Shown one piece after another: positions 21,194 to 33,287 of a stretch of DNA of 58,403 nt. The notes beneath the pieces are model-generated. The model was not told the DNA's origin, ran no database searches, and saw nothing but the letters and a program-made list of their open reading frames with translations. The stretch spans positions 1-58,403 of the IMG/VR virus record IMGVR_UViG_3300048598_000026, one strand, 5' to 3'. The DNA is from a virus. Taxonomy: Duplodnaviria; Caudoviricetes. How positions within the stretch are numbered: position 1 is the first letter of the stretch; the number at the start of each line of letters is the position of its first letter. The translations under genes were made by a program, and so were the position numbers.

Positions 21194-21236
21194 TTTATTT
21201 TCTCCTTTCAAATATAGAAAAGTCTATATGTTCTTC

Positions 21237-21261
21237 CATTAAAGACCGTGTTTTTTTTGCG
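21237..21261 (-). promoter_or_regulatory. 25-bp motif, copy 4
   Basis: CGCAAAAAAAACACGGTCTTTAATG. Confidence 0.65.
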
Positions 21262-21271
21262 CACCTAAATA

Positions 21272-22039
21272 CTACCTGCTGTACTCATATCTAGGAGCAA
21301 CTTGATAATCAATGACGAGACATGGGGTTCCTTCGTCCGCTAACTGCGAGCTGAATCTCAAATCAATATAACCGTGGTCAATGTTCCATCCGAGATCATA
21401 GCCGATACTGGTAGGATTAAGTCCGATTTCGTAATAGAACTCATTAAGTGAAATGTATATTTCATCTCTCATTTTTCGATTGAGTTCGTTCTCGGCTTTC
21501 TTCAACTTATCGATATCCGATTTGAAGTATCGACCCGAAATCACATCATAACAGAGCGTATTACCCTTTTCAGTGATGATGATTTCTCGGCTACTAACCG
21601 GGTCCCGGTCAATCCTACCTTTCGCGATTGCGTCTCTTACGGATTGTTCCTTTTTTTCGCCGATAGCTTCAATCACTTTTTCTTGGTAATCTTTTAAAGC
21701 GGATTCAGATAACGTATAAGCCGTAGCCAACGCTGCATTACGACGGGCATTTACGGAGCTCGCTCCAATTAGACACGCTACAGATAAAGCGCCTGTGACC
21801 GCTGCTGGAACGTAACAAATCCACGCGGTTTTAATGGTTTCTACAGATGTAAGCTCATCCACACCTTCCTCGTTTTTCTTTTCCTCTATGAGAATAAGAG
21901 CTTTGGGCGTCGCTCTAACCGCTAGCATAGTGGTTGTGATCATCCCAGCAATTCCAATTCCGGTAAGAATCTCAGGACTATGTTTTTTCATTGCCGTCCG
22001 AACACTTTTAGCAATGTTAGATAGATTAAATTTACCCAC
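21272..22039 (-). CDS. DUF6353-like membrane protein, paralog 2
   Basis: KKHSPEILTGIGIAG...SLNEFYYEIG...LGW. Confidence 0.7.
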   Translation of the reverse strand: MGKFNLSNIAKSVRTAMKKHSPEILTGIGIAGMITTTMLAVRATPKALILIEEKKNEEGVDELTSVETIKTAWICYVPAAVTGALSVACLIGASSVNARRNAALATAYTLSESALKDYQEKVIEAIGEKKEQSVRDAIAKGRIDRDPVSSREIIITEKGNTLCYDVISGRYFKSDIDKLKKAENELNRKMRDEIYISLNEFYYEIGLNPTSIGYDLGWNIDHGYIDLRFSSQLADEGTPCLVIDYQVAPRYEYSR

Positions 22040-22094
22040 GTTTTTTCTCCTTTCGTTTTCTAAGTTTGTGGAGCCGCCAACAAGGGGTGGAGAT

Positions 22095-22626
22095 TTACAT
22101 CAACAGAAAAGCCGGACGAACCCCACGAGAAGTCGAAGCGTTGCCGGAGCCCGCACGGCCAGAGTAGAACACATAAGCGAAATGAGCTGCAGAAACTTCT
22201 TTTTTCATTGTATTTTGTATCCAATACCACTCATAGTCGTTATTGTAATCAGCAATGCGATTTTTTCTCTTTTTCATAATAATCTGGTTCCATTACACAA
22301 TCATACCAATCATCATGGCCTAATATCTGACCATACGTAGGAATACTAAGGTCACTAATCCTGTTTTTCATATCTTCGGGGAACGCATCCAATAGCACAG
22401 TGTTAATCCACTTGTAGAGATCCGATTTCTCATAACCACCTTTATTATTGTATTTGTTGTTCATGGGCTTATCCGCGACACACTCATCGAACAAAAACAG
22501 TGTTCCCTTATCGGTGATTTTCTGGGCTGTAGCGGTGAACTCACCAAAGCCAGTCAAATGAATGATGATCTGGTCGCCCACTCGAACATTGTTTGTTTCT
22601 AATTCCCGTTTTCTTAATACCTTCAT
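22095..22626 (-). pseudogene. Second DGR target (C-type-lectin-like fold), split by a frameshift into 22249-22626 and 22095-22277
   Basis: N-part KPMNN..NKGGYEKSDLYKWIN...LSIPTYGQILG; C-part WYWIQN...GVRPAF carries VR2; the two overlap in different frames. Confidence 0.75.
22112..22193 (-). repeat. DGR variable repeat VR2 (remote)
   Basis: 82-nt ungapped match to TR 31319-31400; 16 mismatches, all at TR adenines. Confidence 0.95.
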
Positions 22627-22961
22627 GATTTGTCTCCTTTCAAAAATAAATAAAGAATGTCTTCGGCAGCATTCTTTGCAATTGAAAATATAGGATTTGG
22701 TTTCTCATCGTCTCTAAAACACGAATAGTTTTCCATATCATTTATAAATTCTAAGATGATATCGATTGGTGATTTTGGTTCCCGTCCTGTAATATGAAGG
22801 GGTAGTCGTAATATCTCTTCATAAATACGTCCTTGAATTTCGTAGGCTGCCCATCTCGAATAACTTCGTTCTCGAATATAATACTTCGGCCAATTAGATC
22901 TGGGTTCAAAAAGGTGTTCGTCTATGTATTCTTGGATTACTGATATTGCCGATTCATTCAT
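22623..22961 (-). CDS. Hypothetical protein
   Basis: 112-aa ORF overlapping the next start (ATGA). Confidence 0.65.
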   Translation of the reverse strand: MNESAISVIQEYIDEHLFEPRSNWPKYYIRERSYSRWAAYEIQGRIYEEILRLPLHITGREPKSPIDIILEFINDMENYSCFRDDEKPNPIFSIAKNAAEDILYLFLKGDKS

Positions 22962-22985
22962 ACCATCCTCTCCCAGAAAGAAAAA

Positions 22986-23003
22986 GAGCCCTTGTTAGGA
23001 CTC
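22986..23003 (-). terminator. Intrinsic terminator, TAACAA-loop family
   Basis: GAGTCCTAACAAGGGCTC plus T-run; upstream gene's TAA stop is in the loop. Confidence 0.65.
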
Positions 23004-23153
23004 CTCTTCGTTTCTTTTGGCAAGCGCCTCATTTACTTTTTCTTCAATTTTTTCATCTATCTTCTTGTCATTAACCCAATCGGTTATGAGTGTTGCACCC
23101 ATTCCGATTACAGTTGCTGCAATACCAAGGATTTTAATCAATTTACCGTTCAT
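22995..23153 (-). CDS. Small membrane protein
   Basis: MNGKLIKILGIAATVIGMGATL...EEES*. Confidence 0.65.
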   Translation of the reverse strand: MNGKLIKILGIAATVIGMGATLITDWVNDKKIDEKIEEKVNEALAKRNEEES

Positions 23154-23171
23154 AAGACAATTACCCCCTTT

Positions 23172-23196
23172 CATAATAGTGGTTGTAAATTTTGCG
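23172..23196 (-). promoter_or_regulatory. 25-bp motif, copy 5
   Basis: CGCAAAATTTACAACCACTATTATG. Confidence 0.7.
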
Positions 23197-23199
23197 AGA

Positions 23200-24024
23200 T
23201 TAAACATCTTCCATATATTCAGCGGTTGGTTCGAAGACCATGTCAATTATAAATATTTCCATTCCATCATCGAGAACGACTTTGTGATGATTGAAGTCAA
23301 TCCAGTATATATCGCCATTACAAGATGACCAGCCCACAGCTTCGCCAATATCAATTTTTTCAAGACCAAGAAACTCATAGAAGTCATTCAGAGGAATTAC
23401 TCCTTTGAACATAAAATTCCTGTTAAAATGGTATTCTGCTTGAATGACTTTGCTTATAGTGGATTCAAAATGTCTTTGTGAAAAACTGTCATAAAATGTA
23501 CGAGTTATTTCTGGCTCCATTCCATCATCAAAATCAAGCGTGGAACAGCAAATAAAAGAATCAGCAGTAATATGAACATCTTTGCATTTCTCTTTAACTA
23601 TAGAGTCAACTATTGCGTTATGAACTTCCTCTCCATAAAGCTCTTTTAATTTTGCTTTGTACTCTTGGTAAGAACTACTTAACAATGCATAAGCACTTGT
23701 TAACGCGGCTTGTCTTCTCTGATTTAAAGCATTTGCGCCAAAGATACAAATAATTGTGGAGGCGCCAATGGTTATCGACGGAATATAACATTTCCATGCC
23801 GATATAATTGCTTCTGTTTTGGTGTACCCATATGGGTCTCCATCGTGTTTTTTTCGGCTATCGGCCTTAATTAGTTCAAGAGCCTTAGGCGTTGATCTAA
23901 CTGCCGAAATCGCGGTAGCCACGACACCAATGGAAGCTATGCAAGTCAATAGAATAGGAGAATGTCTTTTCAAATATAACTTTGACCTGTATAGAGCTTT
24001 TTGGATTGCCGGCTTTGTATTCAT
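23200..24024 (-). CDS. DUF6353-like membrane protein, paralog 3
   Basis: KRHSPILLTCIASIG...LNDFYEFLG...VGW...WIDF. Confidence 0.7.
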   Translation of the reverse strand: MNTKPAIQKALYRSKLYLKRHSPILLTCIASIGVVATAISAVRSTPKALELIKADSRKKHDGDPYGYTKTEAIISAWKCYIPSITIGASTIICIFGANALNQRRQAALTSAYALLSSSYQEYKAKLKELYGEEVHNAIVDSIVKEKCKDVHITADSFICCSTLDFDDGMEPEITRTFYDSFSQRHFESTISKVIQAEYHFNRNFMFKGVIPLNDFYEFLGLEKIDIGEAVGWSSCNGDIYWIDFNHHKVVLDDGMEIFIIDMVFEPTAEYMEDV

Positions 24025-24075
24025 GTTTTCTCCTTTCAAAATATAAGAGCCTTTGTCTGGGCTCTAAAAATTAAA

Positions 24076-24170
24076 GAAAGAGCACACGAGCGTCATAAAT
24101 GACGGTTAATCTCCTTCCGTTTCCGGGACGATATTGAAATCGTCTTAACAGTTTACCTCTGTACTCTTTC
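24076..24170 (-). ncRNA. Putative multibranched structured RNA
   Basis: Starts right after motif copy 6; 10-bp closing stem enclosing several helices; no ORF; followed by a U-rich tract. Confidence 0.6.
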
Positions 24171-24195
24171 CATAATAGACTCTGTATTTTTCGCG
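24171..24195 (-). promoter_or_regulatory. 25-bp motif, copy 6
   Basis: CGCGAAAAATACAGAGTCTATTATG. Confidence 0.7.
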
Positions 24196-24215
24196 TAAAA
24201 AAAGAGAAGAGGAGG

Positions 24216-24401
24216 CTAAACCCCCGTCTTCACGTCTTTCTCAATTCGAAGCGTCATATGCTCACATTTGATGTTTATCTTGATTTTGCGTTCCTGGTTT
24301 TCTATAACCATTGGAATTTCGATATCTGTATCTACATTCCTAGCTTCGTATAAAATACCCTTCTTCAAAATAGCTGATATAACCATATCGGTGATTTTCA
24401 T
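24216..24401 (-). CDS. Small hypothetical protein
   Basis: AGGAGG RBS, MKITDMVIS... Confidence 0.6.
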   Translation of the reverse strand: MKITDMVISAILKKGILYEARNVDTDIEIPMVIENQERKIKINIKCEHMTLRIEKDVKTGV

Positions 24402-24424
24402 AACATTACCTCCTAAATTGTTTT

Positions 24425-24449
24425 CATAATAGGGGGTGTTATTTTCGCG
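24425..24449 (-). promoter_or_regulatory. 25-bp motif, copy 7
   Basis: CGCGAAAATAACACCCCCTATTATG. Confidence 0.7.
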
Positions 24450-24450
24450 C

Positions 24451-24810
24451 TTAAATATTAGCTCTATCAAATACCGTCTCCCAGCGTGCTTTTGGAATCG
24501 GCTTCATTTTTAGCGCCCACATGATTTGTCTGACAGTAACAGTGGGGTATAAACCGTCCGTACACTCTCCAGAACGTTTATCAAAATATTCTTTAAATCC
24601 TGGACGCAAATATAGATCGTCAGTCAACCAAGGATCTAATTCGCTCCACCACGTACTCTTAGTTTCCTCGTCAAAACGCTGCTGTATCACTGATAAACCC
24701 TTATCGCCTATTTGAAACAGAGTACAACTGTTATAAACTGGATGTTCGCAAATATGAAGTTTTCCGTACATCGATAAATAAATTGTAGGTTTCTCATGGT
24801 GATACCGCAT
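24451..24810 (-). CDS. Hypothetical protein
   Basis: 119-aa ORF, GGGGG RBS. Confidence 0.65.
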   Translation of the reverse strand: MRYHHEKPTIYLSMYGKLHICEHPVYNSCTLFQIGDKGLSVIQQRFDEETKSTWWSELDPWLTDDLYLRPGFKEYFDKRSGECTDGLYPTVTVRQIMWALKMKPIPKARWETVFDRANI

Positions 24811-24831
24811 AAAATCCCCCAAAAGAAAAAA

Positions 24832-24849
24832 GAGTCCTTGTTAGGACTC
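24832..24849 (-). terminator. Intrinsic terminator, TAACAA-loop family
   Basis: GAGTCCTAACAAGGACTC plus T-run; stop codon in loop. Confidence 0.75.
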
Positions 24850-25113
24850 AATCTCTTTTTCTTTAATATCTCTTAATTTGATATGTTTGGTTGTAAGATT
24901 AGCATTTTTGACTTTAAGTTTCCAAATGTCAACACAAGCCGCCTTAGATAAGCCTTTTAATGTTTCAAACGCTGCTTCTGCTTGAAGAACCGTTGCTTCA
25001 CAACAATTAGCCCTTCTAAAAAGATTTAACGCTTCTTTCATTCGCTTGTCTAATTCGGTAATCATAGCGTTGAATACTTTCAACTCGTCATAATAACTCG
25101 ACTTATATACCAT
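24841..25113 (-). CDS. Hypothetical protein
   Basis: GGAGG RBS; ends ...EIES* inside the terminator. Confidence 0.6.
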   Translation of the reverse strand: MVYKSSYYDELKVFNAMITELDKRMKEALNLFRRANCCEATVLQAEAAFETLKGLSKAACVDIWKLKVKNANLTTKHIKLRDIKEKEIES

Positions 25114-25140
25114 AACCCATACCTCCCAAAATATAGTTTT

Positions 25141-25165
25141 CATAATAGGAGATGTTATTTTAGCG
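25141..25165 (-). promoter_or_regulatory. 25-bp motif, copy 8
   Basis: CGCTAAAATAACATCTCCTATTATG. Confidence 0.7.
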
Positions 25166-25177
25166 TAAAAGAAAAAA

Positions 25178-25195
25178 GAGTCCTTGTTAGGACTC
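25178..25195 (-). terminator. Intrinsic terminator, TAACAA-loop family
   Basis: GAGTCCTAACAAGGACTC plus T-run, immediately upstream of motif copy 8. Confidence 0.75.
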
Positions 25196-25209
25196 CTTCC
25201 TTGATTTTA

Positions 25210-25488
25210 TTAGTCTACGTATTCTACTGGATAACCAGCGAGGTCTCTTAAATATGCATCCTGACTTTCAGCCCATCCGCATTCTAAGCAATAGTAGCAA
25301 AAACCCTTAGCGTCCGGGACCATCGAAACCTTACCACATTTAGGGCATGGTCCTCTTCCTAACGTCTCTTTCAGCCTTGCAATGACCTCTTCTGGGTCTT
25401 CGTTTTCGTCCAACTCTGAGTAGTCAATCCCACTATCGTCGCCGTTATCGTAAATAAAATCGTGTTCATCTTTTTTCTTTTTGCTCAT
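25210..25488 (-). CDS. Small acidic Zn-ribbon protein
   Basis: CPKC...CLECGW. Confidence 0.65.
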   Translation of the reverse strand: MSKKKKDEHDFIYDNGDDSGIDYSELDENEDPEEVIARLKETLGRGPCPKCGKVSMVPDAKGFCYYCLECGWAESQDAYLRDLAGYPVEYVD

Positions 25489-25591
25489 AAAAACATTACC
25501 TCCTCATTAATTAGAAAGCAATTATACCCAATTATATATCACTTTCCGTATTAAGTCGAGAGATACAAAGAGCTCTTTAACATCTCCTTTC

Positions 25592-25616
25592 CATAAAGGG
25601 CCTTGTAAAATTCACG
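25592..25616 (-). promoter_or_regulatory. 25-bp motif, copy 9
   Basis: CGTGAATTTTACAAGGCCCTTTATG. Confidence 0.65.
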
Positions 25617-25675
25617 TGGAAAAACGAAGAGAACGTGCAAATTACACGACTCTTCGTTCTTTTGAACTATTAAGC

Positions 25676-26068
25676 CTATTTCTTTGTTGGTTTAAAACGG
25701 TTAAATAATCCTCTGAATGTCGTCGAGGTGTAAGTTCCGGTTTCTTCAAATCTAAATCCTCTCTTCATCCAGGCAGCATAGAATATCAGCGGCAATATAA
25801 TACTCGCTGCTTCCACTCCCAGTTTGAAGTATCGATCTTTGACTTGTTCTTCCAACTGGTCCTTCTTGAGTTGTTTATCGCTTTCGCGAGCATCATACTT
25901 CTCACCGAAGTCCCATTCATTTCTAGTCTCCTCGATCCTCAATCTGTAAAGCTTGGCTAAATCTTCAATTGCTGTCGATTTCTCTTTGCTTCCCGGTTCC
26001 AAGGTAGATAAGTCTCGAATCTCCGCCTTAATCTCCTCTTCTAACAAATTTCTGATTTCTTCGTCCAT
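25676..26068 (-). CDS. Hypothetical membrane protein
   Basis: Coiled-coil plus C-terminal TM; AAGGAG RBS. Confidence 0.7.
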   Translation of the reverse strand: MDEEIRNLLEEEIKAEIRDLSTLEPGSKEKSTAIEDLAKLYRLRIEETRNEWDFGEKYDARESDKQLKKDQLEEQVKDRYFKLGVEAASIILPLIFYAAWMKRGFRFEETGTYTSTTFRGLFNRFKPTKK

Positions 26069-26104
26069 TCTAGTTCTCCTTTCAATAAACGATTTAATTA
26101 GTTC

Positions 26105-26129
26105 CATAAGAGAGGGTGTTATTTATGCG
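26105..26129 (-). promoter_or_regulatory. 25-bp motif, copy 10
   Basis: CGCATAAATAACACCCTCTCTTATG. Confidence 0.65.
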
Positions 26130-26340
26130 GAATGAAACTTTTAAGGTTGACATTCATGGTTATGTACTTCTTTCGATAAACCTCACCGATATCTTTTGAC
26201 AACTCCAAAAACAAATATGGACTGTCGTCCGGATCGGAGGTGTCTACTCGAAGGGTGCCAACAGATTTGATGCGAGCCACAATGACCGAACAAACACTCC
26301 CGACCAACACTCCGATTCCAAATATAATAAATAGTTCCAT
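26119..26340 (-). CDS. Small membrane protein
   Basis: N-terminal TM, GTLRVDTSDPDDSPYLFLEL. Confidence 0.7.
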   Translation of the reverse strand: MELFIIFGIGVLVGSVCSVIVARIKSVGTLRVDTSDPDDSPYLFLELSKDIGEVYRKKYITMNVNLKSFIPHK

Positions 26341-26402
26341 AACGAACCCTCCTTTAAAAGCTTTTTAGAATTTCTAACCCTGGGATTTTTTCATATATCA
26401 AA

Positions 26403-26433
26403 ATAACATATTTTATGGTCACCTTCGTACGGA
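26403..26433 (-). promoter_or_regulatory. 31-bp second-class motif, copy A
   Basis: 26/31 identical to 32400-32430. Confidence 0.55.
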
Positions 26434-26460
26434 AAATCTAAGCTAGGATAAAAAAAAAGA

Positions 26461-26509
26461 AAGAACCCTTGTTAGGGGTTCTTTCATAATAGGAATTGTA
26501 AAATTTTCG
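26461..26509 (-). promoter_or_regulatory. 25-bp motif copy 11 (26485-26509) abutting a TAACAA-loop terminator (26461-26483): empty cassette
   Basis: CGAAAATTTTACAATTCCTATTATG then AAGAACCC-CTAACAA-GGGTTCTT plus T-run. Confidence 0.65.
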
Positions 26510-26516
26510 AAGGCAT

Positions 26517-26726
26517 TTAATCAGACTTTATATCGTCCTCATAAACGGTTTTCTTGTTAAGAGATGACCAATTAATAAATCGATCTTTACGGCAAACAGG
26601 ACAAAAGAATTTATTAACCTTACCACCAATATCTACAAGTTCTTGATATTCGGCTTCTAGCCGGCTTCCACAATTCGGACAATTAAATCGATACAGTTTT
26701 CGAACAGCTTTACCTAATATCTTCAT
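26517..26726 (-). CDS. Zn-ribbon protein
   Basis: CPNC...CPVC. Confidence 0.65.
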   Translation of the reverse strand: MKILGKAVRKLYRFNCPNCGSRLEAEYQELVDIGGKVNKFFCPVCRKDRFINWSSLNKKTVYEDDIKSD

Positions 26727-26727
26727 C

Positions 26728-27147
26728 TCACTTTCTCTCCTTATTCAGAATCCAGAAGAACCGTCTATACAATTCGTAATAGACATCCTTACCACAGGGA
26801 ATATCTAATCTAGCTTTCAAATGATCATAAGAAATGCCTTCTGTGACCGCCTTTAAAATATATCTCGATAAGTCCGCATCAGTTTCCATAGCGGTCTGTT
26901 CGATCATGCACATCCTTTCAAAATAAAACGATCTTGCTTCTATACATCTAGCAGTCGGATCACCATGAACGTTCGTCTTAGAAAACATGGCCAAATCGGC
27001 AGGTCGCTTACTCAGACCGTCTAATGCTGCATATGCTTTTTTCCATATCGGATATTGAAGACAGAAATGCTTTAACTCATAATAGCGATGTTTTTCAATC
27101 CAGTATTTGTTTTTCTCGGATAACTCCGGACGGATTATTGTTCCCAT
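26728..27147 (-). CDS. RinA/ArpU-like transcriptional regulator
   Basis: DPTARC...YYELYRRFFW C-terminal HTH-like pattern. Confidence 0.5.
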   Translation of the reverse strand: MGTIIRPELSEKNKYWIEKHRYYELKHFCLQYPIWKKAYAALDGLSKRPADLAMFSKTNVHGDPTARCIEARSFYFERMCMIEQTAMETDADLSRYILKAVTEGISYDHLKARLDIPCGKDVYYELYRRFFWILNKERK

Positions 27148-27396
27148 TTAACGTTTTTCTCCTTTCCATAAATATCCGGTTTCTTCCCATAGAAGTTTTG
27201 GTGAAATATAAAAATTGATTCGTCCGTACTTTGAGTTGACATCTTCAATTCTCGTTACGAGCTTCCCGTTCCTAGTGGCCTTTCCGATCGGTAGCCAGCC
27301 GGATATAATTCCAGCTCTGACCCACGATGCGTCTTTTCCGTATACTCTGGCAACCACTGAGACCGGCACGGAACCATTTTCAAAAATATCATCCAT
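27148..27396 (-). CDS. Small HTH protein, excisionase candidate
   Basis: VPVSVVARVYGKDASWVRAGI; near the integrase. Confidence 0.5.
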   Translation of the reverse strand: MDDIFENGSVPVSVVARVYGKDASWVRAGIISGWLPIGKATRNGKLVTRIEDVNSKYGRINFYISPKLLWEETGYLWKGEKR

Positions 27397-27507
27397 TTGC
27401 TTCTACCTCCCTTCAAAAACTATTCTAGGTTAAAAACGGCTATTAGTAAAAACAACCAAAGTGGACAAAAATAAAGAGCCTTTGTTATGGCTCTTCTTTG
27501 TTTAATT

Positions 27508-27840
27508 CTAAAGACGTTTATGATCCCACAATAGGAGTTGTGATTTTTGCGACTTCCATCGAATCATGGTCATTTCACAAGGGTAGTCCTCGAAACCGAT
27601 TGTGTCAGGAATTATGAGCTCTTCTAATACACCCCTTATTATTTCAGCCTCGTATTGTTTATAGGGGTAAATATCATCTGGAAGCTCCCTGTGAATCTCT
27701 CCGCATTCTACGCATCTCAACCTGCGTATTTCTATGTATTTTGATATTCGGCCCTTAGTCCGTACAATTCTTTTAACTTTATCGTAATATTTTAAATATC
27801 CTCCGCAATCCGGGCAAGTTGACTCGTTATTATTAATCAT
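27508..27840 (-). CDS. DUF6431-like Zn-ribbon protein
   Basis: CPDC...RRLRCVECG..HRELPD..PYKQY; divergent from the integrase. Confidence 0.6.
   Translation of the reverse strand: MINNNESTCPDCGGYLKYYDKVKRIVRTKGRISKYIEIRRLRCVECGEIHRELPDDIYPYKQYEAEIIRGVLEELIIPDTIGFEDYPCEMTMIRWKSQKSQLLLWDHKRL
27527..27551 (-). promoter_or_regulatory. 25-bp motif, copy 12
   Basis: CGCAAAAATCACAACTCCTATTGTG; terminator hairpin at 27474-27495 follows about 30 nt later. Confidence 0.6.
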
Positions 27841-27920
27841 AATAGCTGCCATCCTGTAGTACAAAAAACATATATGCCTCATTCTAACCTATGTTAAAAA
27901 ATATAACCAGAAAAAAAGTT

Positions 27921-27961
27921 TAGTGTAGGAGTTGACAATTCCTACACTATTCATATATGAT
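27921..27961 (+). promoter_or_regulatory. Integrase promoter with operator-like inverted repeat
   Basis: TAGTGTAGGA-N9-TCCTACACTA enclosing TTGACA (27932); TATGAT at 27956. Confidence 0.7.
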
Positions 27962-28010
27962 TACATAATTCAACTAGAAATTCTTAATCAAGTTGGAAAG
28001 GAGGAACATC

Positions 28011-29249
28011 ATGTTAATGAAATGTCCAGAATGCGAACTGCAAGTAAGCGATAAGGCACTGTCTTGTCCTCATTGTGGATTCCCGTTACAGCCGGATGTA
28101 AAACCAAGAAAACCTAGAAATAAAAATAACAAGAGAAGACGCTTACCTAATGGATTCGGACAAATAAGTGAGATAAAGAATCGCAATCTTAGAAACCCGT
28201 TTCGGGCAATGGTTACAGTCGGAAAGACACCTACCGGTAGACCCATTTGTAAACCTCTCAAACCGGAATCGTATTTCCCAACATATAACGATGCTTATAC
28301 TGCGTTAGTAGAGTATAACAAGAATCCATATGATTTAGAGCCATCAATAACGGTAAAAGAGCTTTATGAAAAGTGGACAAAAGAATACTTTAAGACTATT
28401 GGAGAATCTAGCATAAGAGGAACTGAAGATGCTTGGCGATATTGTACAGCCGTACACAATATGAGGGTGATAGATATTCGAGCCCGTCACATAAAAGGTT
28501 GTATGGAAGAGGGTAAAGCTACGATTAGAGGTAAAGAGCAAATGCCAAGTGCCTCTATGAAAAACAAAATCAAGACTCTATTCAACCAGATGCTTGACTA
28601 CGCTGTGGAATATGAGCTTGTAGACCGGAATTACTCCAGGACCTTCAATTTATCCGACGAAACCATTAAAGAGATTCAGACGGTTAAGAAGGAGCATATA
28701 GCATTTGCTGATTCGGAAATGGAGTTGCTTTGGCAGCATGTAGACAACAAGCGACTTGTTGACGTCTTGCTTATTCAATGCTATTCTGGATGGAGACCCC
28801 AAGAACTCGGTCTAATCGAACTAACTAAAGTGGATTTGGACAAGGGGTTATTCACCGGAGGTATGAAAACAGACTCCGGCACTGACAGAACTGTTCCAAT
28901 CCATTCACGCATTAAATATCTGGTAGAGAGAAAATATGAAGAGGCTCAGAAACTAGGCAGCGATTACTTGTTCAACTATATTGACGTGGACGGTAATCGA
29001 AGAAATATAAAGCTGACTTACAACCGGTATAAGAAAGTATTCGAACGAATCCGCGATGAACTTAACTTAAATCCTGAACACAGGCCTCATGATGGACGTA
29101 AGCATTTCGTCACGGCTGCTAAAAAATACGGCGTTGACGAGTACGCAATCAAATATATGGTCGGTCATAAAATTTCAGATATTACCGAGAAAGTATACAC
29201 TGACAGAGAGTTAAAGTGGCTTAAAGAGGAAATAGAAAAAATAAAATAG
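28011..29249 (+). CDS. int: Tyrosine integrase with N-terminal Zn ribbon
   Basis: YSGWRPQE, K, HDGRKHF, MVGH...TEKVY catalytic residues; N-terminal CPEC...CPHC. Confidence 0.92.
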   Translation: MLMKCPECELQVSDKALSCPHCGFPLQPDVKPRKPRNKNNKRRRLPNGFGQISEIKNRNLRNPFRAMVTVGKTPTGRPICKPLKPESYFPTYNDAYTALVEYNKNPYDLEPSITVKELYEKWTKEYFKTIGESSIRGTEDAWRYCTAVHNMRVIDIRARHIKGCMEEGKATIRGKEQMPSASMKNKIKTLFNQMLDYAVEYELVDRNYSRTFNLSDETIKEIQTVKKEHIAFADSEMELLWQHVDNKRLVDVLLIQCYSGWRPQELGLIELTKVDLDKGLFTGGMKTDSGTDRTVPIHSRIKYLVERKYEEAQKLGSDYLFNYIDVDGNRRNIKLTYNRYKKVFERIRDELNLNPEHRPHDGRKHFVTAAKKYGVDEYAIKYMVGHKISDITEKVYTDRELKWLKEEIEKIK

Positions 29250-29260
29250 GGTGTATTGTG

Positions 29261-29456
29261 TGTAGGAATAGAGGTATAGGAGTGGTGTAGGAGTAATATA
29301 CGATTTACATACATTTCCCTACATTTAACCACTCTTAGCCACTTCTGAAAATATTGATTTTGCTGGGTTTTTGGTGTTTAGGCACCAGAATCTGTTTCTA
29401 TTATAGAAACAAAAAATCCCGATATATCAGCATTTTTGTGTTGAAATGTAGGAATA
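29261..29456. other. Candidate attP
   Basis: Arm-like T(G/A)TAGGA repeats at 29261, 29275, 29286, 29447 around the inverted repeat TGTTTCTA-TTA-TAGAAACA (29393-29411). Confidence 0.6.
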
Positions 29457-29605
29457 ATCAATAAGTAATCTACACATAAACACAGCTACTCGCCGTATAC
29501 TACTGTCGAAGCAATGAATTCTCCAGAATCATTGTACCATCAGCTTGATGAACATGTACATTCTTTCTATAGGTTGAACTTCATTTACCAGAGCACCATC
29601 AATAG

Positions 29606-29950
29606 TCAAACCGCTGTTGAGTCTTTGTCAGTTAGTGTCTCGATGTATTTCGACTTTCGAATTGGTAATTTGTTAACTTCCTGCATAACACGTTTTGCAG
29701 ATCCATTAGCACCCATTTTTTCGTATGGCTTATATAAGTAATCATTAAGATTCTCATATTCGTCTTGAGTGATCCAACCACGCTCAATATGGCACATGCC
29801 AAGATATATGATTCTATCATGACCTAGCCCTATAAGCATTTCGGTTTTGACATCTTTCTTTTCAAGTTTTTTTTGTAAATATGCCCAAAAGCCCGAAGAT
29901 GCGATTACTGAGCAGACAATTGTGATGATCATTTGAATCCATGGTTCCAT
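29606..29950 (-). CDS. Holin-like membrane protein
   Basis: N-terminal TM, GLGHDRI...LYKPY..MGANG; end of late transcript. Confidence 0.6.
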   Translation of the reverse strand: MEPWIQMIITIVCSVIASSGFWAYLQKKLEKKDVKTEMLIGLGHDRIIYLGMCHIERGWITQDEYENLNDYLYKPYEKMGANGSAKRVMQEVNKLPIRKSKYIETLTDKDSTAV

Positions 29951-30000
29951 AAGCGGATACCTCCTTAAGGAATTCTTGTGGCGGTATATGAAAAGAAAAA

Positions 30001-30018
30001 GAGCCCTTGTTAGGACTC
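30001..30018 (-). terminator. Intrinsic terminator after the DGR RT, TAACAA-loop family
   Basis: Identical to 22986-23003 including flanks. Confidence 0.65.
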
Positions 30019-30024
30019 CTCTTT

Positions 30025-31209
30025 TTATAAAAGGACCAGTTTCTTATTGACAATAATAACCTTCTTATTAAACAGTTCCTCATAAAGGCATATAAGATTT
30101 TGTCTTTGTTGCCTTGATAATAGTTTGTAGAAACTACCCATCCAACCTTTAAACATATTTTCAACATTCTCATAGAGGACGTCGCCATTTTTCACTTTGA
30201 TGGCGAGTTTCTTTAGTTTTCTACGTATTGCTGTGACGCGTTCCGGATTTATTCGCTTTATGATCTTACCAGAACTGGTCAAGGTATATTTTATTTGGAG
30301 ATACTTATACGTGCCGCCGATTACCACGATTCTGGTCTTTTTCTCATTAATGTGGATCCCTAACCCCTTAGCAATTACACGAATATGATTTAAAATATCA
30401 AGTAATTCTTCTTTTGATGGGTTCATTATGTACCAATCATCCATATAACGCCCATAATATTTTTGACTTCTTACGTATTTTACATAATTGTCTATACGAT
30501 ATGGGTAATAGATACCAATTACTTGAGATAGTTGATCACCAATATTTACAGATTTTTCCATAAACTTCTTGCCTGTAAGCTCAGATTTTGGAATGAGCCT
30601 GTACTCAAGTTTGTTAAACGTATCTTCCATACAGGTAGAATACTCTTCGTCCGTCATATACGATGCATCAATTTTAAACCCATCAAATATAAGAGTAAGT
30701 AACCAGTCAATGAATTCATCATCGTCTAATAGCTTAAGTAGCTCCCTCTTGGCAATTTCGTGAATGACGTTGTCAAAGAACTTACTAAAATCACCAAACA
30801 AAATATAACCTTCATTACCATGCTCTATATAATATTTTCGGAGATGTACCTCGAAACGATTTCTCGAATGTGAGATTCCACGCCCCTTAATAGAAGCACC
30901 GTTATCGTAAATGATCTTTTTCTGAACCTCGGGAAGTAATATCTCATCACATAAAACATGACGGACTATACGATCCTTGGTTTGTAGACTTGTAATAGGC
31001 CTAACTCTACCTCGTTCAGAAAGTGAGAACTCATCAGTTGGTCCATTTTGTAGACTTCTGTTGATAAGATCTTCTTGAATGAAAAATATATACCGAAGGA
31101 AGTTCAGCATTACCTTTTGAGTTGACTCCTTCCATTTACTTCCTTTTATAGAGGCTTTGTAGGCCTTATACAAGTTATTGGCGTCGCAAAGTATCTCCTC
31201 ATAATTCAT
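30025..31209 (-). CDS. DGR reverse transcriptase
   Basis: DRIV, GDFSKFFDN, IGDQLSQ, YGRYMDD; adjacent TR and Avd. Confidence 0.95.
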   Translation of the reverse strand: MNYEEILCDANNLYKAYKASIKGSKWKESTQKVMLNFLRYIFFIQEDLINRSLQNGPTDEFSLSERGRVRPITSLQTKDRIVRHVLCDEILLPEVQKKIIYDNGASIKGRGISHSRNRFEVHLRKYYIEHGNEGYILFGDFSKFFDNVIHEIAKRELLKLLDDDEFIDWLLTLIFDGFKIDASYMTDEEYSTCMEDTFNKLEYRLIPKSELTGKKFMEKSVNIGDQLSQVIGIYYPYRIDNYVKYVRSQKYYGRYMDDWYIMNPSKEELLDILNHIRVIAKGLGIHINEKKTRIVVIGGTYKYLQIKYTLTSSGKIIKRINPERVTAIRRKLKKLAIKVKNGDVLYENVENMFKGWMGSFYKLLSRQQRQNLICLYEELFNKKVIIVNKKLVLL

Positions 31210-31318
31210 AGTTATTCACCGTTATAGCAATAGTTACCTTAGTAAATTGCGTCCGGCTTTGTCATTTATCCTTGATGGAAAGGATAGCATCTCCTTCTCT
31301 GTTGGTTAGGCAGAGAAT
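31210..31318 (-). ncRNA. DGR spacer RNA segment (3' of TR)
   Basis: Hairpins at 31295-31317, 31267-31286 and 31227-31250; segment AAAGCCGGACG at 31250-31260. Confidence 0.7.
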
Positions 31319-31400
31319 CCGGACGAACCCCATTAGAATTCGAAGCGTTGTTGGAGTTCGCATTGCCATTGTTGTTCACATTAGCGAAATTAGCTGCAGA
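31319..31400 (-). repeat. DGR template repeat (TR)
   Basis: 11 AAY codons; matches VR1 and VR2 except at adenines. Confidence 0.97.
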
Positions 31401-31408
31401 TTTAGATG

Positions 31409-31894
31409 CTACCCCTGTAAATATAATTTGATCTTGTTGTCTCTTTGACGCCATTTCTTTATCAAACCGATTTCTCGGTTAATAGCTTTGATGTACTTTC
31501 CATAGATATTGATGTCGACTTCAAATATTTCTACGACTCGCTGTAGCTCTTTGACTAGTTGTTCGCAATTTGCTATTGCGTCGTTCTGGTAATCTCTTCG
31601 ACGCTCATATTCATGCAAAGAAGTCGGATAAAGAGTATTAGCTGCTCTCACGTTGCTTGTAAGTAGAGATGATATATGGTCAATACGATTTTTAGAGTTC
31701 TGCATCAAATATCTGTATTTTGCAAAATCTTCTTTATCATCTTTTCCATATGCATAGCGAATACGTACAAGATTGTCCAAATCTTTAACGCCGAAACTTC
31801 TTTGCATGAGTTCTGTGAGCATAGCGTGTAGCTCTATGGAATAAGTTACCGCCTCAAATTTTGATTCTTTACGGTCGCTAACTAGAACACTCAT
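31409..31894 (-). CDS. avd: DGR accessory variability determinant (Avd-like)
   Basis: Basic helical protein ...AANTLYP...RRDYQ..AI..C...E..LIKKWR immediately upstream of TR. Confidence 0.75.
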   Translation of the reverse strand: MSVLVSDRKESKFEAVTYSIELHAMLTELMQRSFGVKDLDNLVRIRYAYGKDDKEDFAKYRYLMQNSKNRIDHISSLLTSNVRAANTLYPTSLHEYERRRDYQNDAIANCEQLVKELQRVVEIFEVDINIYGKYIKAINREIGLIKKWRQRDNKIKLYLQG

Positions 31895-32034
31895 TAGTAA
31901 GCCTTGCCGGTGATTTCTTCGAATTCGGCTTCAGTAATCCAGTTCATTATAACCGCATTTCGAACCCGAGTCTCATTCCACATCTTCATGACATAATAAG
32001 TCTTTACTTTATTGTAATTATCGCTATAATTCAT
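31894..32034 (-). CDS. XkdX-family small protein (absent from the ORF track)
   Basis: MNYSDNYNKVKTYYVMKMWNETRVRNAVIMNWITEAEFEEITGKAY; TAATG coupling to avd. Confidence 0.85.
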   Translation of the reverse strand: MNYSDNYNKVKTYYVMKMWNETRVRNAVIMNWITEAEFEEITGKAY

Positions 32035-32049
32035 GGTGATCCTCCTCTC

Positions 32050-32385
32050 TTAAAGCTCTACGCCCGTCATCATTGACAGATAATCGATGTCGGACCGAAT
32101 CTTAATCTGTTTGAGTTCTTCTAAAGAAATATCACGAAGAACAAACCAGTATTCACTGTTAACTTCGGTAACCTGAACGAGCTCCATGTTGTCATGGATT
32201 TCATCATGAGTTCCATCACTGATTATGACCGGAGAGCACTTGCCGTCAAAAACTTCCGGATCGATAGGTTCTACGGAAATATAATTATTCCCATTGAGTT
32301 TAAGGTTGTTTATTTCCGTTCCGTCATTAAGAGTGATTTTATAGTTTTTTTCATCCATTTCCATTTCAACTCTCATCCCTTTCAA
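32050..32385 (-). CDS. Tail-associated hypothetical protein upstream of xkdX
   Basis: C-terminal SDIDYLSMMTGVEL; actual start may be a few codons downstream. Confidence 0.7.
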   Translation of the reverse strand: MKGMRVEMEMDEKNYKITLNDGTEINNLKLNGNNYISVEPIDPEVFDGKCSPVIISDGTHDEIHDNMELVQVTEVNSEYWFVLRDISLEELKQIKIRSDIDYLSMMTGVEL

Positions 32386-32399
32386 TTTTTTCTTTTTTT

Positions 32400-32430
32400 A
32401 TAACATATATTCCGGTAACCTGCGTACGGA
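32400..32430 (-). promoter_or_regulatory. 31-bp second-class motif, copy B (upstream of the DGR operon)
   Basis: TCCGTACGCAGGTTACCGGAATATATGTTAT. Confidence 0.55.
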
Positions 32431-32441
32431 GTTTTTAAAAT

Positions 32442-32456
32442 GGGGCACAAGGCCCC
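32442..32456 (-). other. DGR hairpin/cruciform downstream of VR1
   Basis: GGGGC-CTTGT-GCCCC 9 nt after the target stop codon. Confidence 0.7.
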
Positions 32457-32465
32457 TAGATTAAG

Positions 32466-33287
32466 CTAACCAACAGGGAATGCCGGACGAACCCCAAAAG
32501 AAAACGAAGCGTTGTTGGAGTACGCATTGCCAAAGCTGTTCACAAAAGCGAAATTAGCTGCAGAAACGACATCTCTCAACCAGATTGATTGGCGATTCTT
32601 ATACGCTCTTGGATTAAGTCTAAACAATGATAGCTGCGAATTATCAATAGTGGTCCTTGTAGGAACAACTACCCCATTACCTGCTGGAGTACGTACGTAA
32701 GATCCATATACCATAATTTCATTCATAAGCTCAACGCTGGAATCAAACCATGCAGCGGCGGAAGAAGCACCATCAGTTACAGCGTTTACGAGATATTCTC
32801 TATGAGTGAGAAGCATATCACCAAAAGCTGTTAAAATTGTGGTCTTTGCATTATCTAGATTCGCTGTATACATGAGGGAGCCTACATAACCGCCCTCGGT
32901 AGTGTTTGTGGTATTCATCACCGCATTATAAAGTGAACCGTTAGGAACAATCACTAGATGGTGTTTCGTAAATGCGGTATCGCCGCAATTATACCAGTAA
33001 TCCATATCTGCTATTACCCAAGATACACCATTGATAACCCAGTAATCCCCGATGAACAAATCGTCAAATGTTCCGGATTGAATTGCCGCTTTCTGAGCCG
33101 CAGTAATAGTGGTTCCAAGATTTTTCCCTCTGTAAACATTTCGACGATTAACCACCGAAACAAGACCTGCAAATTCGATGGCCGCATCGCTAGCAAGAAT
33201 CTTTTTAGTACCACCACTACCATCTTTAATAAGGATATCTCCGGCGGTAAATCGAGTATCGGCAGCGTAAGTAATAAGTTTTGCCAT
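32466..33287 (-). CDS. DGR target 1, probable receptor-binding tail protein with C-terminal CLec-like fold
   Basis: Ends IWLRDVV-VR1-GVRPAFPVG; in tail module. Confidence 0.88.
   Translation of the reverse strand: MAKLITYAADTRFTAGDILIKDGSGGTKKILASDAAIEFAGLVSVVNRRNVYRGKNLGTTITAAQKAAIQSGTFDDLFIGDYWVINGVSWVIADMDYWYNCGDTAFTKHHLVIVPNGSLYNAVMNTTNTTEGGYVGSLMYTANLDNAKTTILTAFGDMLLTHREYLVNAVTDGASSAAAWFDSSVELMNEIMVYGSYVRTPAGNGVVVPTRTTIDNSQLSLFRLNPRAYKNRQSIWLRDVVSAANFAFVNSFGNAYSNNASFSFGVRPAFPVG
32483..32564 (-). repeat. DGR variable repeat VR1
   Basis: 82-nt match to TR; 10 mismatches, all at TR adenines. Confidence 0.97.

What the first reader, a model, noticed from the sequence alone, without database searches (positions are those of the whole stretch)
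31293..31317. Hairpin after TR displays a loop antisense to the target 3' end: a possible RNA guide or toehold
Seen: the RNA folds as UUCUCUG-CCUAACCAA-CAGAGAA. Loop plus 3' arm (CUAACCAACAGAGAAGG) is the reverse complement of target-1's last 17 coding nt CATTCCCTGTTGGTTAG (32466-32482; 15/17, 11 contiguous). It also pairs with target-2's CTTTTCTGTTG (22101-22111; 10 Watson-Crick plus one G-T). The shared CTGTTG is in different reading frames in the two targets, pointing to nucleotide-level constraint. Inference: loop-initiated strand exchange lets the DGR RNA recognise targets, a programmable targeting step I do not know to be described.
Basis: partly seen in the sequence, partly recalled or inferred. 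Interest (0 to 1): 0.85.

Follow-up and report, generated by a model that had tools for sequence, protein, structure and literature searches.

The report
DGR primer hairpin loop matches target
A small RNA hairpin next to the template of a phage hypermutation element carries a loop that stays complementary to the end of the genes it mutates, which suggests that the RNA itself helps to find its targets.

Summary
On the minus strand a 7-bp, 9-nt-loop hairpin (31317..31295) directly follows the template repeat (TR) of a diversity-generating retroelement (DGR). Its loop plus 3' arm is antisense to the last 17 coding nt of target 1 (15/17, 11 contiguous) and pairs partly with target 2.

The stem is conserved with compensatory changes in relatives. 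Its 3' arm ends in AA|GGAG, the motif that follows the fold-back primer strand in other DGR clades. I therefore read it as a minimal form of the BPP-1 template:primer duplex.

Of 188 related loci with both hairpin and variable-repeat (VR) flank, 177 have at least 6 nt of loop-to-flank complementarity. Divergent lineages changed loop and flank together at several core positions. In a class-level permutation, 0 of 20,000 shuffles reached the observed match.

This supports RNA pairing with the target flank. The idea is not new in kind: Naorem et al. 2017 proposed RNA primer to IMH pairing for BPP-1. What is new is the compact hairpin form and the comparative covariation. The priming site, the partner strand and any need for the pairing are inferred, not shown. 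Verdict: new variant of a known kind, of real interest.

The parts
31295..31317 (-). HP1: fold-back hairpin directly after the TR. 5' arm UUCUCUG 31317..31311, loop CCUAACCAA 31310..31302, 3' arm CAGAGAA 31301..31295. The inferred priming adenosine is 31295.
   Evidence: Sequence. Fold at -7.0 kcal/mol. On 42 distinct relatives, 7 pairs, 3 with changes on both sides, 97.6% of cells paired.
31291..31294 (-). GGAG following the 3' arm. It is part of the conserved AAGGAG motif that follows the primer strand.
   Evidence: Invariant in the 42-sequence alignment A1. 215 of 226 family loci have a hairpin ending AA before GGAG. Similar AAGGAG/AAGGAA follows the fold-back strand in other RT clades.
31318..31414 (-). 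Template repeat (TR). The 5' end is not mapped precisely; it overlaps the end of the Avd ORF.
   Evidence: Repeat family D2. Against VR1 all 10 mismatches fall at TR adenines; against VR2 17 of 18 do (fraction 0.94).
31227..31250 (-). HP3: 9-bp stem with a 2-nt bulge, capped by the tetraloop UAAG (UACG in 40 of the 42 aligned sequences, UAAG also in L025). Candidate Avd-binding stem-loop, placed downstream of the primer strand instead of inside the fold-back loop.
   Evidence: 100% of cells paired, 1 pair with compensatory change. Fits the description of Avd-binding stem-loops in preprint 10.1101/2023.10.23.563531. The assignment is inferred.
31268..31285 (-). HP2: AUCCUU-UCCAUC-AAGGAU hairpin in the spacer.
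   Evidence: 88.9% of cells paired, 1 pair with a change on both sides. Function unknown.
30025..31209 (-). DGR reverse transcriptase, 394 aa.
   Evidence: PF00078 E 2.9e-16. phrog_1423 'Reverse transcriptase' E 4.4e-56.
31409..31894 (-). Avd-like accessory protein, 161 aa.
   Evidence: phrog_3206 'Avd protein of DGR' E 1.5e-10. No Pfam or NCBIfam hit.
32483..32578 (-). VR1, at the 3' end of target gene 1 (ORF 33287..32466).
   Evidence: Repeat D2. A-specific mismatches to the TR.
32466..32482 (-). VR1 3' flank CATTCCCTGTTGGTTAG (last codons plus stop). IMH-like element complementary to HP1 loop + 3' arm.
   Evidence: TTGGTT is kept in relatives in more than one reading frame.
32442..32456 (-). 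GC-rich hairpin GGGGCCTTGTGCCCC downstream of VR1 (terminator-like DGR target hairpin).
   Evidence: Sequence. Visible beside the proximal VR in most rows; not counted systematically. Matches the requirement described for BPP-1 (PMC3240598, abstract and Discussion).
22104..22207 (-). VR2, at the 3' end of target 2.
   Evidence: Repeat D2. 17 of 18 mismatches at TR adenines.
22095..22111 (-). VR2 3' flank CTTTTCTGTTGATGTAA. Partial complement of HP1: the 3' arm plus 3 loop nt.
   Evidence: duplex -15.5 kcal/mol with RNA parameters.

Best explanation
The hairpin is a minimal fold-back template:primer duplex of this phage DGR's RNA. The TR's 3' end (5' arm) pairs with the strand CAGAGAA. By analogy with BPP-1 SpA56, the last adenosine of that strand (31295, followed by GGAG) primes cDNA synthesis on the TR. 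The RNA just 5' of the priming site, that is the 9-nt loop and the 3' arm, therefore stays covalently joined to the 5' end of the cDNA.

That RNA segment is antisense to the sense strand at the 3' edge of the variable repeats (TTGGTTAG and neighbours, the IMH equivalent). Loop, arm and cDNA together form one continuous antisense strand across the VR boundary. Pairing of the exposed loop, extended by opening of the weak stem, would anchor the RNA-linked cDNA at the correct end of the correct genes. It would also distinguish VR from TR, because the TR's DNA carries the motif inverted.

Shown here: the hairpin and its conservation; loop/flank complementarity; covariation of loop and flank.
Inferred: the priming site; that the partner is VR DNA; that the pairing is needed for homing.
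For: 1. Complementarity in the window: 15/17 to VR1 with 11 contiguous, and 10 WC + 1 G-T to VR2.
2. The stem is conserved: 7 pairs, 3 with compensatory change, 97.6% paired in 42 distinct sequences. The alternative long-range helix CGTCCGG:CCGGACG has no compensatory change and is broken in 7-9 sequences.
3. 215 of 226 family loci have a hairpin ending AA|GGAG. In other RT clades the TR end folds back on a strand about 40-70 nt downstream that is also followed by AAGGAG/AAGGAA. An automated search found this in 73 of 148 unique TR/VR combinations, a total that includes the window's family.
4. The BPP-1 architecture and priming are published.
5. Of 188 loci with hairpin and VR flank, 177 have a loop-only complementary run of at least 6 nt and 147 of at least 8. 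Over the 72 unique combinations the mean run is 7.44, against 4.02 with shuffled flanks.
6. Divergent lineages changed both sides together: L367 loop TTTTAACCGA with flank TCGGTTAAAG; L390 AACACCAAA with TTGGTGT; L383 CACCAG with TTGGTG; L392-395 and L397 (A)AGCCAA with TTGGC; L398/L407 AGATTACCAA with TTGGT(T)AATCT. These sit in separate branches of the RT tree.
7. Class-level permutation over 19 distinct guide segments: 142 of 190 positions matched, against a permuted 123.8 +/- 4.2 with a maximum of 141; 0 of 20,000 shuffles reached the observed value.
8. In the L004 lineage a 3'-arm change breaks a stem pair but matches the VR. In L389, L396 and L379 the 3' arm is Watson-Crick to the VR (8 of 8, 9 of 10 and 7 of 8 nt) but wobble-paired to the TR.
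9. The same is true of BPP-1: rc(Sp48-56) equals VR118-126 at 9/9 and the TR at 6/9.
10. Duplex energies with RNA parameters (-19.1 for VR1, -15.5 for VR2) exceed the hairpin's -7.0 kcal/mol.
Against:
- The single-site test (second loop nt, C/T, against VR position 8, G/A) is underpowered. It found 4-5 independent pairs, about 3 going the same way, none opposite and the rest unchanged, with sign test p about 0.25.
- 6 of 111 distinct rows carry a C-A mismatch at that site.
- The first loop nt matches the VR in 20 of 75 loci, which is chance level.
- The region of the VR equivalent to the 3' arm differs from the arm's complement at 1-3 of 7 positions in most loci.
- VR-like copies in L027, L028, L055, L071, L072 and L075 have a different flank with no TTGGTTAG, yet differ from the TR mostly at adenines. 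They may be truncated relics.
- The window's VR2 keeps only about 11 pairs.
- In several other DGR clades (for example L082, L192, L196, L238) the primer strand is no more complementary to the VR than controls are, so the feature is not universal.
- The class-level permutation ignores the relatedness of the classes.
Confidence: 0.6

Rival explanations
1. Information transfer rather than recognition. The VR flank is periodically rewritten from the RNA primer during homing: the loop + arm RNA, attached to the cDNA, is used as template in repair. Complementarity would then be a product of the mechanism, not a guide that selects the site.
For: This would also yield covariation of loop and flank. 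Naorem et al. propose RNase H/Pol I processing of the annealed RNA primer, which leaves room for copying.
Against: The VR segment between the cDNA-derived part and the loop-equivalent part (the 3'-arm equivalent) is the less well matched one. Typical cases are TTCGCTA or TTCCCTA against TTCTCTG, while the loop-equivalent 8 nt match. A conversion tract starting from the cDNA should rewrite the nearer segment first. The VR also carries one extra nt at the junction in the family loci where both flanks were read.
Confidence: 0.13
2. The loop pairs with something other than VR DNA, for example the 3' end of the target mRNA (the stop-codon region UUGGUUAG). That would link DGR RNA and target expression, or recruit the RNP to the transcribing target.
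For: The complementary stretch covers the last codons and the stop codon of the target. Covariation cannot tell DNA from RNA partners. G-U-compatible combinations occur.
Against: The geometry fits the DNA model exactly: loop + arm + cDNA form one continuous antisense strand across the VR boundary. No evidence exists for an mRNA role in any DGR paper I read.
Confidence: 0.12
3. The hairpin is purely a structural or protein-binding element (template:primer duplex, RT/Avd contact). The loop's likeness to the inverted VR flank would be a historical accident, such as an inverted hairpin loop of an ancestral IMH* copy, without any pairing today.
For: The loop core TAACCAA is invariant in the 80 viral loci in which the hairpin was found (of the 81 fetched), as a protein contact would be. 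Other clades work without such complementarity. Some VR-like copies lack the motif.
Against: Compensatory changes at several core positions in separate lineages, and 0 of 20,000 permutations reaching the observed match. TTGGTT is kept in the VR flank in different reading frames. Arm changes favour VR pairing over stem pairing.
Confidence: 0.1
4. Chance complementarity.
For: Short sequences; 8-nt matches do occur by chance.
Against: About 6e-4 for the window alone. Conserved in 177 of 188 loci. Covariation.
Confidence: 0.02

Closest known systems
Bordetella phage BPP-1 DGR: spacer RNA primer (Sp47-56, priming A56) and its proposed pairing with the VR IMH (Naorem et al. 2017, PMC5703328; Handa et al. 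2018, PMC6182149; preprint 10.1101/2023.10.23.563531)
   Same: - The TR 3' end folds back on a downstream strand.
- An adenosine followed by G lies at the end of that strand.
- RNA 5' of that adenosine is antisense to the VR's 3' flank, more so than to the TR (BPP-1: 9/9 against 6/9).
- A GC hairpin lies after the VR.
- Avd and RT are present.
   Different: - The fold-back loop is 9 nt here, against about 46 nt of spacer holding the Avd-binding stem-loop in BPP-1.
- The tetraloop stem-loop lies downstream of the primer strand here.
- The extra complementarity to the target lies in an unpaired loop, not in the primer strand.
- The VR has one extra nt at the junction.
- There are two targets.
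- Priming chemistry is untested here.
DGR target-site elements: IMH plus downstream hairpin/cruciform (Guo et al. 2011, PMC3240598)
   Same: A short sequence beyond the TR/VR homology, plus a GC hairpin directly downstream of the VR. Nucleotide-level conservation is independent of coding.
   Different: The IMH equivalent here is about 16 nt ending in the stop codon. It is related to the TR flank partly by homology (arm) and partly by inversion (loop), instead of being a near-identical IMH*.
Group II intron EBS-IBS pairing (recalled, not tested here)
   Same: A retroelement RNA loop recognises its DNA target by short base pairing that covaries with the target.
   Different: There is no ribozyme and no reverse splicing. 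The DGR cDNA is made before target contact.

Membership tests
Diversity-generating retroelement (DGR) | Reverse transcriptase of the DGR clade next to the repeats | tested here: met
   PF00078. phrog_1423 E 4.4e-56. 39% identity to the annotated RT of a phage whose locus carries a TR/VR pair with 84% of mismatches at TR adenines.
Diversity-generating retroelement (DGR) | TR/VR pair whose mismatches fall at TR adenines | tested here: met
   VR1: 10 of 10 mismatches at A. VR2: 17 of 18 (fraction 0.94).
Diversity-generating retroelement (DGR) | Avd accessory gene | tested here: met
   phrog_3206 E 1.5e-10. No Pfam or NCBIfam support.
Diversity-generating retroelement (DGR) | GC-rich hairpin just downstream of the VR | tested here: met
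   GGGGCCTTGTGCCCC at 32456..32442. Seen beside the proximal VR in most related loci. The VR2 hairpin has 2 mismatches.
BPP-1-type cis-primed reverse transcription (template:primer fold-back) | Base-paired duplex between the TR 3' end and a spacer strand | tested here: met
   HP1: 7 bp, 3 compensatory pairs.
BPP-1-type cis-primed reverse transcription (template:primer fold-back) | Priming adenosine at the 3' end of that strand, followed by G | tested here: inconclusive
   The sequence fits: AA|GGAG is invariant. Whether it primes cannot be seen from sequence.
BPP-1-type cis-primed reverse transcription (template:primer fold-back) | Covalent RNA-cDNA molecule (2'-5' branch or nicked RNA) | not testable with these tools
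   No RNA run holds the locus.
BPP-1-type cis-primed reverse transcription (template:primer fold-back) | Avd-binding stem-loop between the TR end and the primer strand | tested here: not met
   The fold-back loop is 9 nt. The only tetraloop-capped 9-bp stem (HP3) lies downstream of the primer strand.
RNA primer to IMH pairing (Naorem 2017 hypothesis) | RNA 5' of the priming site more complementary to the VR flank than to the TR flank | tested here: met
   The loop's 8 nt pair with the VR1 flank only; the arm matches 6/7 to the VR and 7/7 to the TR. Family-wide counts are, covariation.
Any Rfam RNA family | Covariance-model match | tested here: not met
   0 matches at E up to 1 in 30900-32700.

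The most novel reading that the evidence does not exclude
In this large clade of gut Clostridia prophage DGRs, target choice and homing direction are set by a short programmable RNA guide. This guide is the exposed loop of the self-priming hairpin. It seeds pairing with the sense strand at the VR's 3' boundary and then opens the stem (a natural toehold). Changing loop and flank together would retarget the element. The same logic, RNA 5' of the priming site read against the IMH, would underlie IMH recognition in DGRs generally.
Probability: 0.45. Interest if true: 0.8.

Novelty: new variant of a known kind. Interest (0 to 1): 0.62.

Why it matters
How DGR cDNA finds and enters the variable repeat is still described as unknown (PLoS Genet 2026, PMC12875486, passages read). 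The only RNA-pairing proposal rested on one sequence comparison in BPP-1.

This family offers a natural mutational series. About 190 loci share an 8-10-nt loop that tracks the target flank, which turns the proposal into a directly testable rule. If it holds, the element is compact (a 23-nt hairpin plus a 16-nt flank) and could be used to aim DGR mutagenesis at chosen genes. It would also explain why the last codons of DGR targets are conserved at the nucleotide level.

Tried and rejected
- DNA search of the phage collection with the 3.3-kb DGR region found no match.
- A protein search of the 5.8-billion set listed only relatives of at least 73% identity, so it did not help reach distant DGRs.
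- A long-range helix between the TR's CGTCCGG and the spacer's CCGGACG appears in the MFE fold. I rejected it: no compensatory change, and it is broken in 7-9 of 42 sequences.
- Rfam gave no match.
- The look-up of sequencing runs listed no RNA holder and only three DNA runs with 5-6% of the words.
- The single-site phylogenetic test was run three times with growing samples. It never reached significance and is reported as underpowered.
- The ungapped-register comparison of primer strand against VR fails for the window's family, because the VR has one extra nt at the junction. The automated choice of primer site was wrong for L151 and excluded BPP-1.
- Scripts returned nothing because of my own regex errors and were rewritten.
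- In one search the ORF picker took wrong proteins for L056, L261, L374 and L388 (long branches) and found no RT for L007 and L259. I use that tree only for the placement of the other rows.
- In one search one 'VR flank' (L331) was in fact a TR. It counts among the 72 combinations and was dropped. L367 was missed and added to.
- A reading of AAGGAG as a Shine-Dalgarno site was rejected. It lies about 85 nt from the RT start, which has its own GGTGA site, and the ATG right after it is not conserved.
- Supplementary files of the papers were not opened. Table S3 and Fig. S18 of the Handa/Ghosh preprint, which list predicted RNA elements of 278 DGRs, might already include this clade.

Full report
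OBSERVATION. The window carries a DGR on its minus strand. Its parts are target 1 (33287..32466) with VR1 at its 3' end, a 111-aa ORF, an Avd-like gene (31894..31409), the TR (about 31414..31318), a 108-nt spacer and the RT (31209..30025). A second VR lies at 22207..22104. RT, Avd and target families were confirmed by profile searches. TR/VR mismatches fall at TR adenines: 10 of 10 for VR1 and 17 of 18 for VR2.

Directly after the last shared block GTCCGG the TR continues A-TTCTCTG-CCTAACCAA-CAGAGAA-GGAG. VR1 continues CATTCCCTGTTGGTTAG and VR2 continues CTTTTCTGTTGATGTAA. The 3' arm's match to the VRs follows from TR/VR similarity through the 5' arm. The non-trivial part is the loop, whose 8 nt complement TTGGTTAG in register (rough chance estimate 6e-4).

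THE HAIRPIN IS CONSERVED. A scan of viral contigs with the RT gave 80 loci at 77-88% identity. In the 80 loci where the hairpin was found, the loop core TAACCAA is invariant. On 42 distinct spacer sequences the 7-bp stem is paired in 97.6% of cells, and 3 pairs show changes on both sides. Examples are TTCTCTG/CAGAGAA to TTCTTCG/CGAAGAA and to TTCTCTA/TAGAGAA. A competing long-range helix from the MFE fold has no compensatory change and is broken in 7-9 sequences. Two further hairpins follow. HP3 is a 9-bp bulged stem capped by a tetraloop (UACG in 40 of the 42 aligned sequences; UAAG in the window and L025).

WHAT THE HAIRPIN IS. I sampled other DGR clades starting from three phage RTs at 31-39% identity. 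TR/VR pairs were found in 200 of 257 loci, giving 148 unique combinations. In many of these the TR's 3' end is complementary to a strand about 40-70 nt downstream, and that strand is followed by AAGGAG or AAGGAA. The intervening loop holds a tetraloop stem-loop (the automated search found this in 73 of 148 combinations, the window's family included).

This is the published BPP-1 layout. Sp3-33 is the Avd-binding stem-loop, Sp47-56 pairs with TR117-129, A56 primes and G57 is required. I read this in passages and section 10 of preprint 10.1101/2023.10.23.563531, in section 6 and the Discussion of Naorem 2017 and in passages of Handa 2018.

In the window's family the same arm + AAGGAG follows the TR after only a 9-nt loop. 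215 of 226 family loci have a hairpin ending AA|GGAG. I therefore read HP1 as a minimal template:primer duplex, with A31295 as the likely priming nucleotide and the tetraloop stem-loop moved downstream. This is inference by analogy. No read or experiment here shows priming.

LOOP AND TARGET FLANK. If priming is at that A, then loop, 3' arm and cDNA form one continuous antisense strand over the VR boundary. This is what Naorem et al. noted for BPP-1. I verified it on AY029185: rc(Sp48-56) TGACCACCT equals VR118-126 at 9/9, while the TR has 6/9.

Across the family (viral loci, a pattern scan for T-class loops, and 67 prophage loci from Lachnospiraceae, Christensenellaceae and other genomes), 188 loci have both hairpin and VR flank. 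Of these, 177 have a loop-only complementary run of at least 6 nt and 147 of at least 8. Over 72 unique combinations the mean is 7.44, against 4.02 with shuffled flanks. TTGGTT is kept in the VR flank in different reading frames.

COVARIATION. The divergent prophage loci are decisive:
- L367: loop TTTTAACCGA, flank TCGGTTAAAG.
- L390: AACACCAAA with TTGGTGT.
- L383: CACCAG with TTGGTG.
- L392-395 and L397: (A)AGCCAA with TTGGC.
- L398/L407: AGATTACCAA with TTGGT(T)AATCT.
- L399: AACCAA with TTGGTT.

These are compensatory changes at core positions 2, 5, 6 and 7, in lineages that sit apart on the RT tree (four rows of that tree were wrong ORFs and are ignored). Loop changes without a VR change are wobble-compatible (L356). 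In the L004 lineage an arm change breaks a stem pair but matches the VR. In L389, L396 and L379 the 3' arm is Watson-Crick to the VR and wobble-paired to the TR.

With one representative for each of 19 distinct 10-nt guide segments, 142 of 190 positions match the locus's own flank. Permuted flanks give 123.8 +/- 4.2 with a maximum of 141, and 0 of 20,000 permutations reach the observed value. That test ignores relatedness among classes. Other clades also show a primer strand that fits the VR better than the TR: L149/L151 (10 against 5 nt), L124 (8), and L101/L125 (8 against 6).

AGAINST, AND LIMITS.
- The single-site test (second loop nt, C/T, against VR position 8, G/A) has only 4-5 independent contrasts: about 3 the same way, none opposite, p about 0.25. 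Six of 111 distinct rows have a C-A mismatch at that site.
- The first loop nt matches at chance level, 20 of 75.
- The arm-equivalent part of the VR is less well matched than the loop-equivalent part.
- VR-like copies in six loci lack the motif and the GC hairpin, yet differ from the TR mostly at adenines. In L071 the copy sits in a 50-aa ORF beside a 413-aa reverse-strand gene and looks truncated.
- Several other clades show no excess complementarity.
- No RNA run holds the locus.

LITERATURE AND NOVELTY. I searched.
- Guo 2011 (abstract and Discussion read) defines IMH plus hairpin.
- Naorem 2017 (section 6 and Discussion read) proposes RNA primer to IMH pairing.
- The 2026 PLoS Genet paper (passages read) still calls integration unknown and favours annealing to the lagging-strand template.
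- The DGRec preprint (one passage read) only notes the IMH requirement.

I found no paper in these searches that reports loop/flank covariation or a 9-nt fold-back hairpin. Supplements were not available. The kind of mechanism is therefore already proposed. The compact architecture and the comparative support appear to be new.

MECHANISM AND RIVALS. Best reading (0.6): a self-priming hairpin whose loop, and then arm, pairs with the sense strand at the VR's 3' edge. This anchors the RNA-linked cDNA and tells VR from TR. Rivals:
- Rewriting of the flank from the RNA primer (0.13). Disfavoured, because the nearer arm-equivalent segment is the less matched one.
- Pairing with the target mRNA or at another step (0.12).
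- A purely structural hairpin with inherited inversion (0.1). Disfavoured by the covariation.
- Chance (0.02).

VERDICT. This is a new variant of a known, still unproven kind of mechanism, with unusually good natural covariation that makes it directly testable.

Noticed in passing
window 22095-22626 (minus strand): Target gene 2 is split into two overlapping ORFs in different frames (22626..22249, 125 aa; 22277..22095, 60 aa with VR2). They match consecutive parts of phrog_21980 (profile 58-176 and 181-239). The break lies near A-runs. Its VR-side GC hairpin has two mismatches. This may be a decaying target, a sequencing error or a frameshift site.
   Followed up: partly
window 32480-32484 vs 31317-31319; L001-L410; L149, L151: At the junction between the last shared block (..CCGG) and the TTC.. 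arm-equivalent, the VR has one more nucleotide than the TR (VR CCGG-NN-TTC, TR CCGG-A-TTC). This holds in the family loci where both flanks were read, including divergent ones, and in the unrelated L149/L151 clade. BPP-1 has no such indel. Unexplained; it could reflect the geometry of the RNA-cDNA joint or an untemplated nucleotide.
   Followed up: partly
L081-L263, spacer about 40-70 nt after the TR: Across several DGR RT clades the fold-back strand is followed by a conserved AAGGAG/AAGGAA. The fold-back loop holds a motif like GACAAAGTAACC-tetraloop-GGTGAAATC. AAGGAG looks like a ribosome-binding site but lies 85-230 nt from the RT start.
   Followed up: partly
VR flanks (e.g. window 32457-32465): Between the stop codon and the GC hairpin most VR flanks, in several RT clades, carry one or two copies of [A/T]AATC (TTAATC, AAAATC, TAATCnnnTAATC). 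Many spacers carry GAAATC in the same sense. The L398 loop extends its complementarity into this motif.
   Followed up: no
window 21232-30033 (families D1, D3-D7, D9): Two repeated regulatory-looking elements lie between the minus-strand genes. One is a 30-38-nt motif (TTTCATAATAGnnnnTGTnATTTTnGCG on the plus strand, 6-7 copies). The other is terminator-like hairpins GAGCCC-TTGTTA-GGACTC (4-5 copies). The hairpin after VR1 has the same CTTGT-type loop, so the DGR target hairpin looks like this phage's ordinary terminators.
   Followed up: no
L027, L028, L055, L071, L072, L075 around 7080-7200; L037 second copy: These loci hold short VR-like copies whose homology to the proximal VR stops right after GGTCT and which lack TTGGTTAG and the GC hairpin. 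In L071 the copy lies in a 50-aa ORF next to a 413-aa reverse-strand ORF. The copies differ between loci mostly at TR-adenine positions; L027/L055 also differ at non-A sites.
   Followed up: partly
L389, L396, L379: In these lineages the 3' arm is complementary to the VR flank (8 of 8, 9 of 10 and 7 of 8 nt). It pairs with the TR's 5' arm only through two or three G-U pairs, as in BPP-1, where the primer fits the IMH better than the IMH*.
   Followed up: partly
L083-L085: In this clade the 7 nt right after the TR/VR homology are inverted between the two: the TR has ATAATGC where the VR has GCATTAT. A second 7-mer (GATTAAA / TTTAATC) is also complementary, although the primer strand lies about 50 nt further on. 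This may be the same principle with a looped-out insertion.
   Followed up: no
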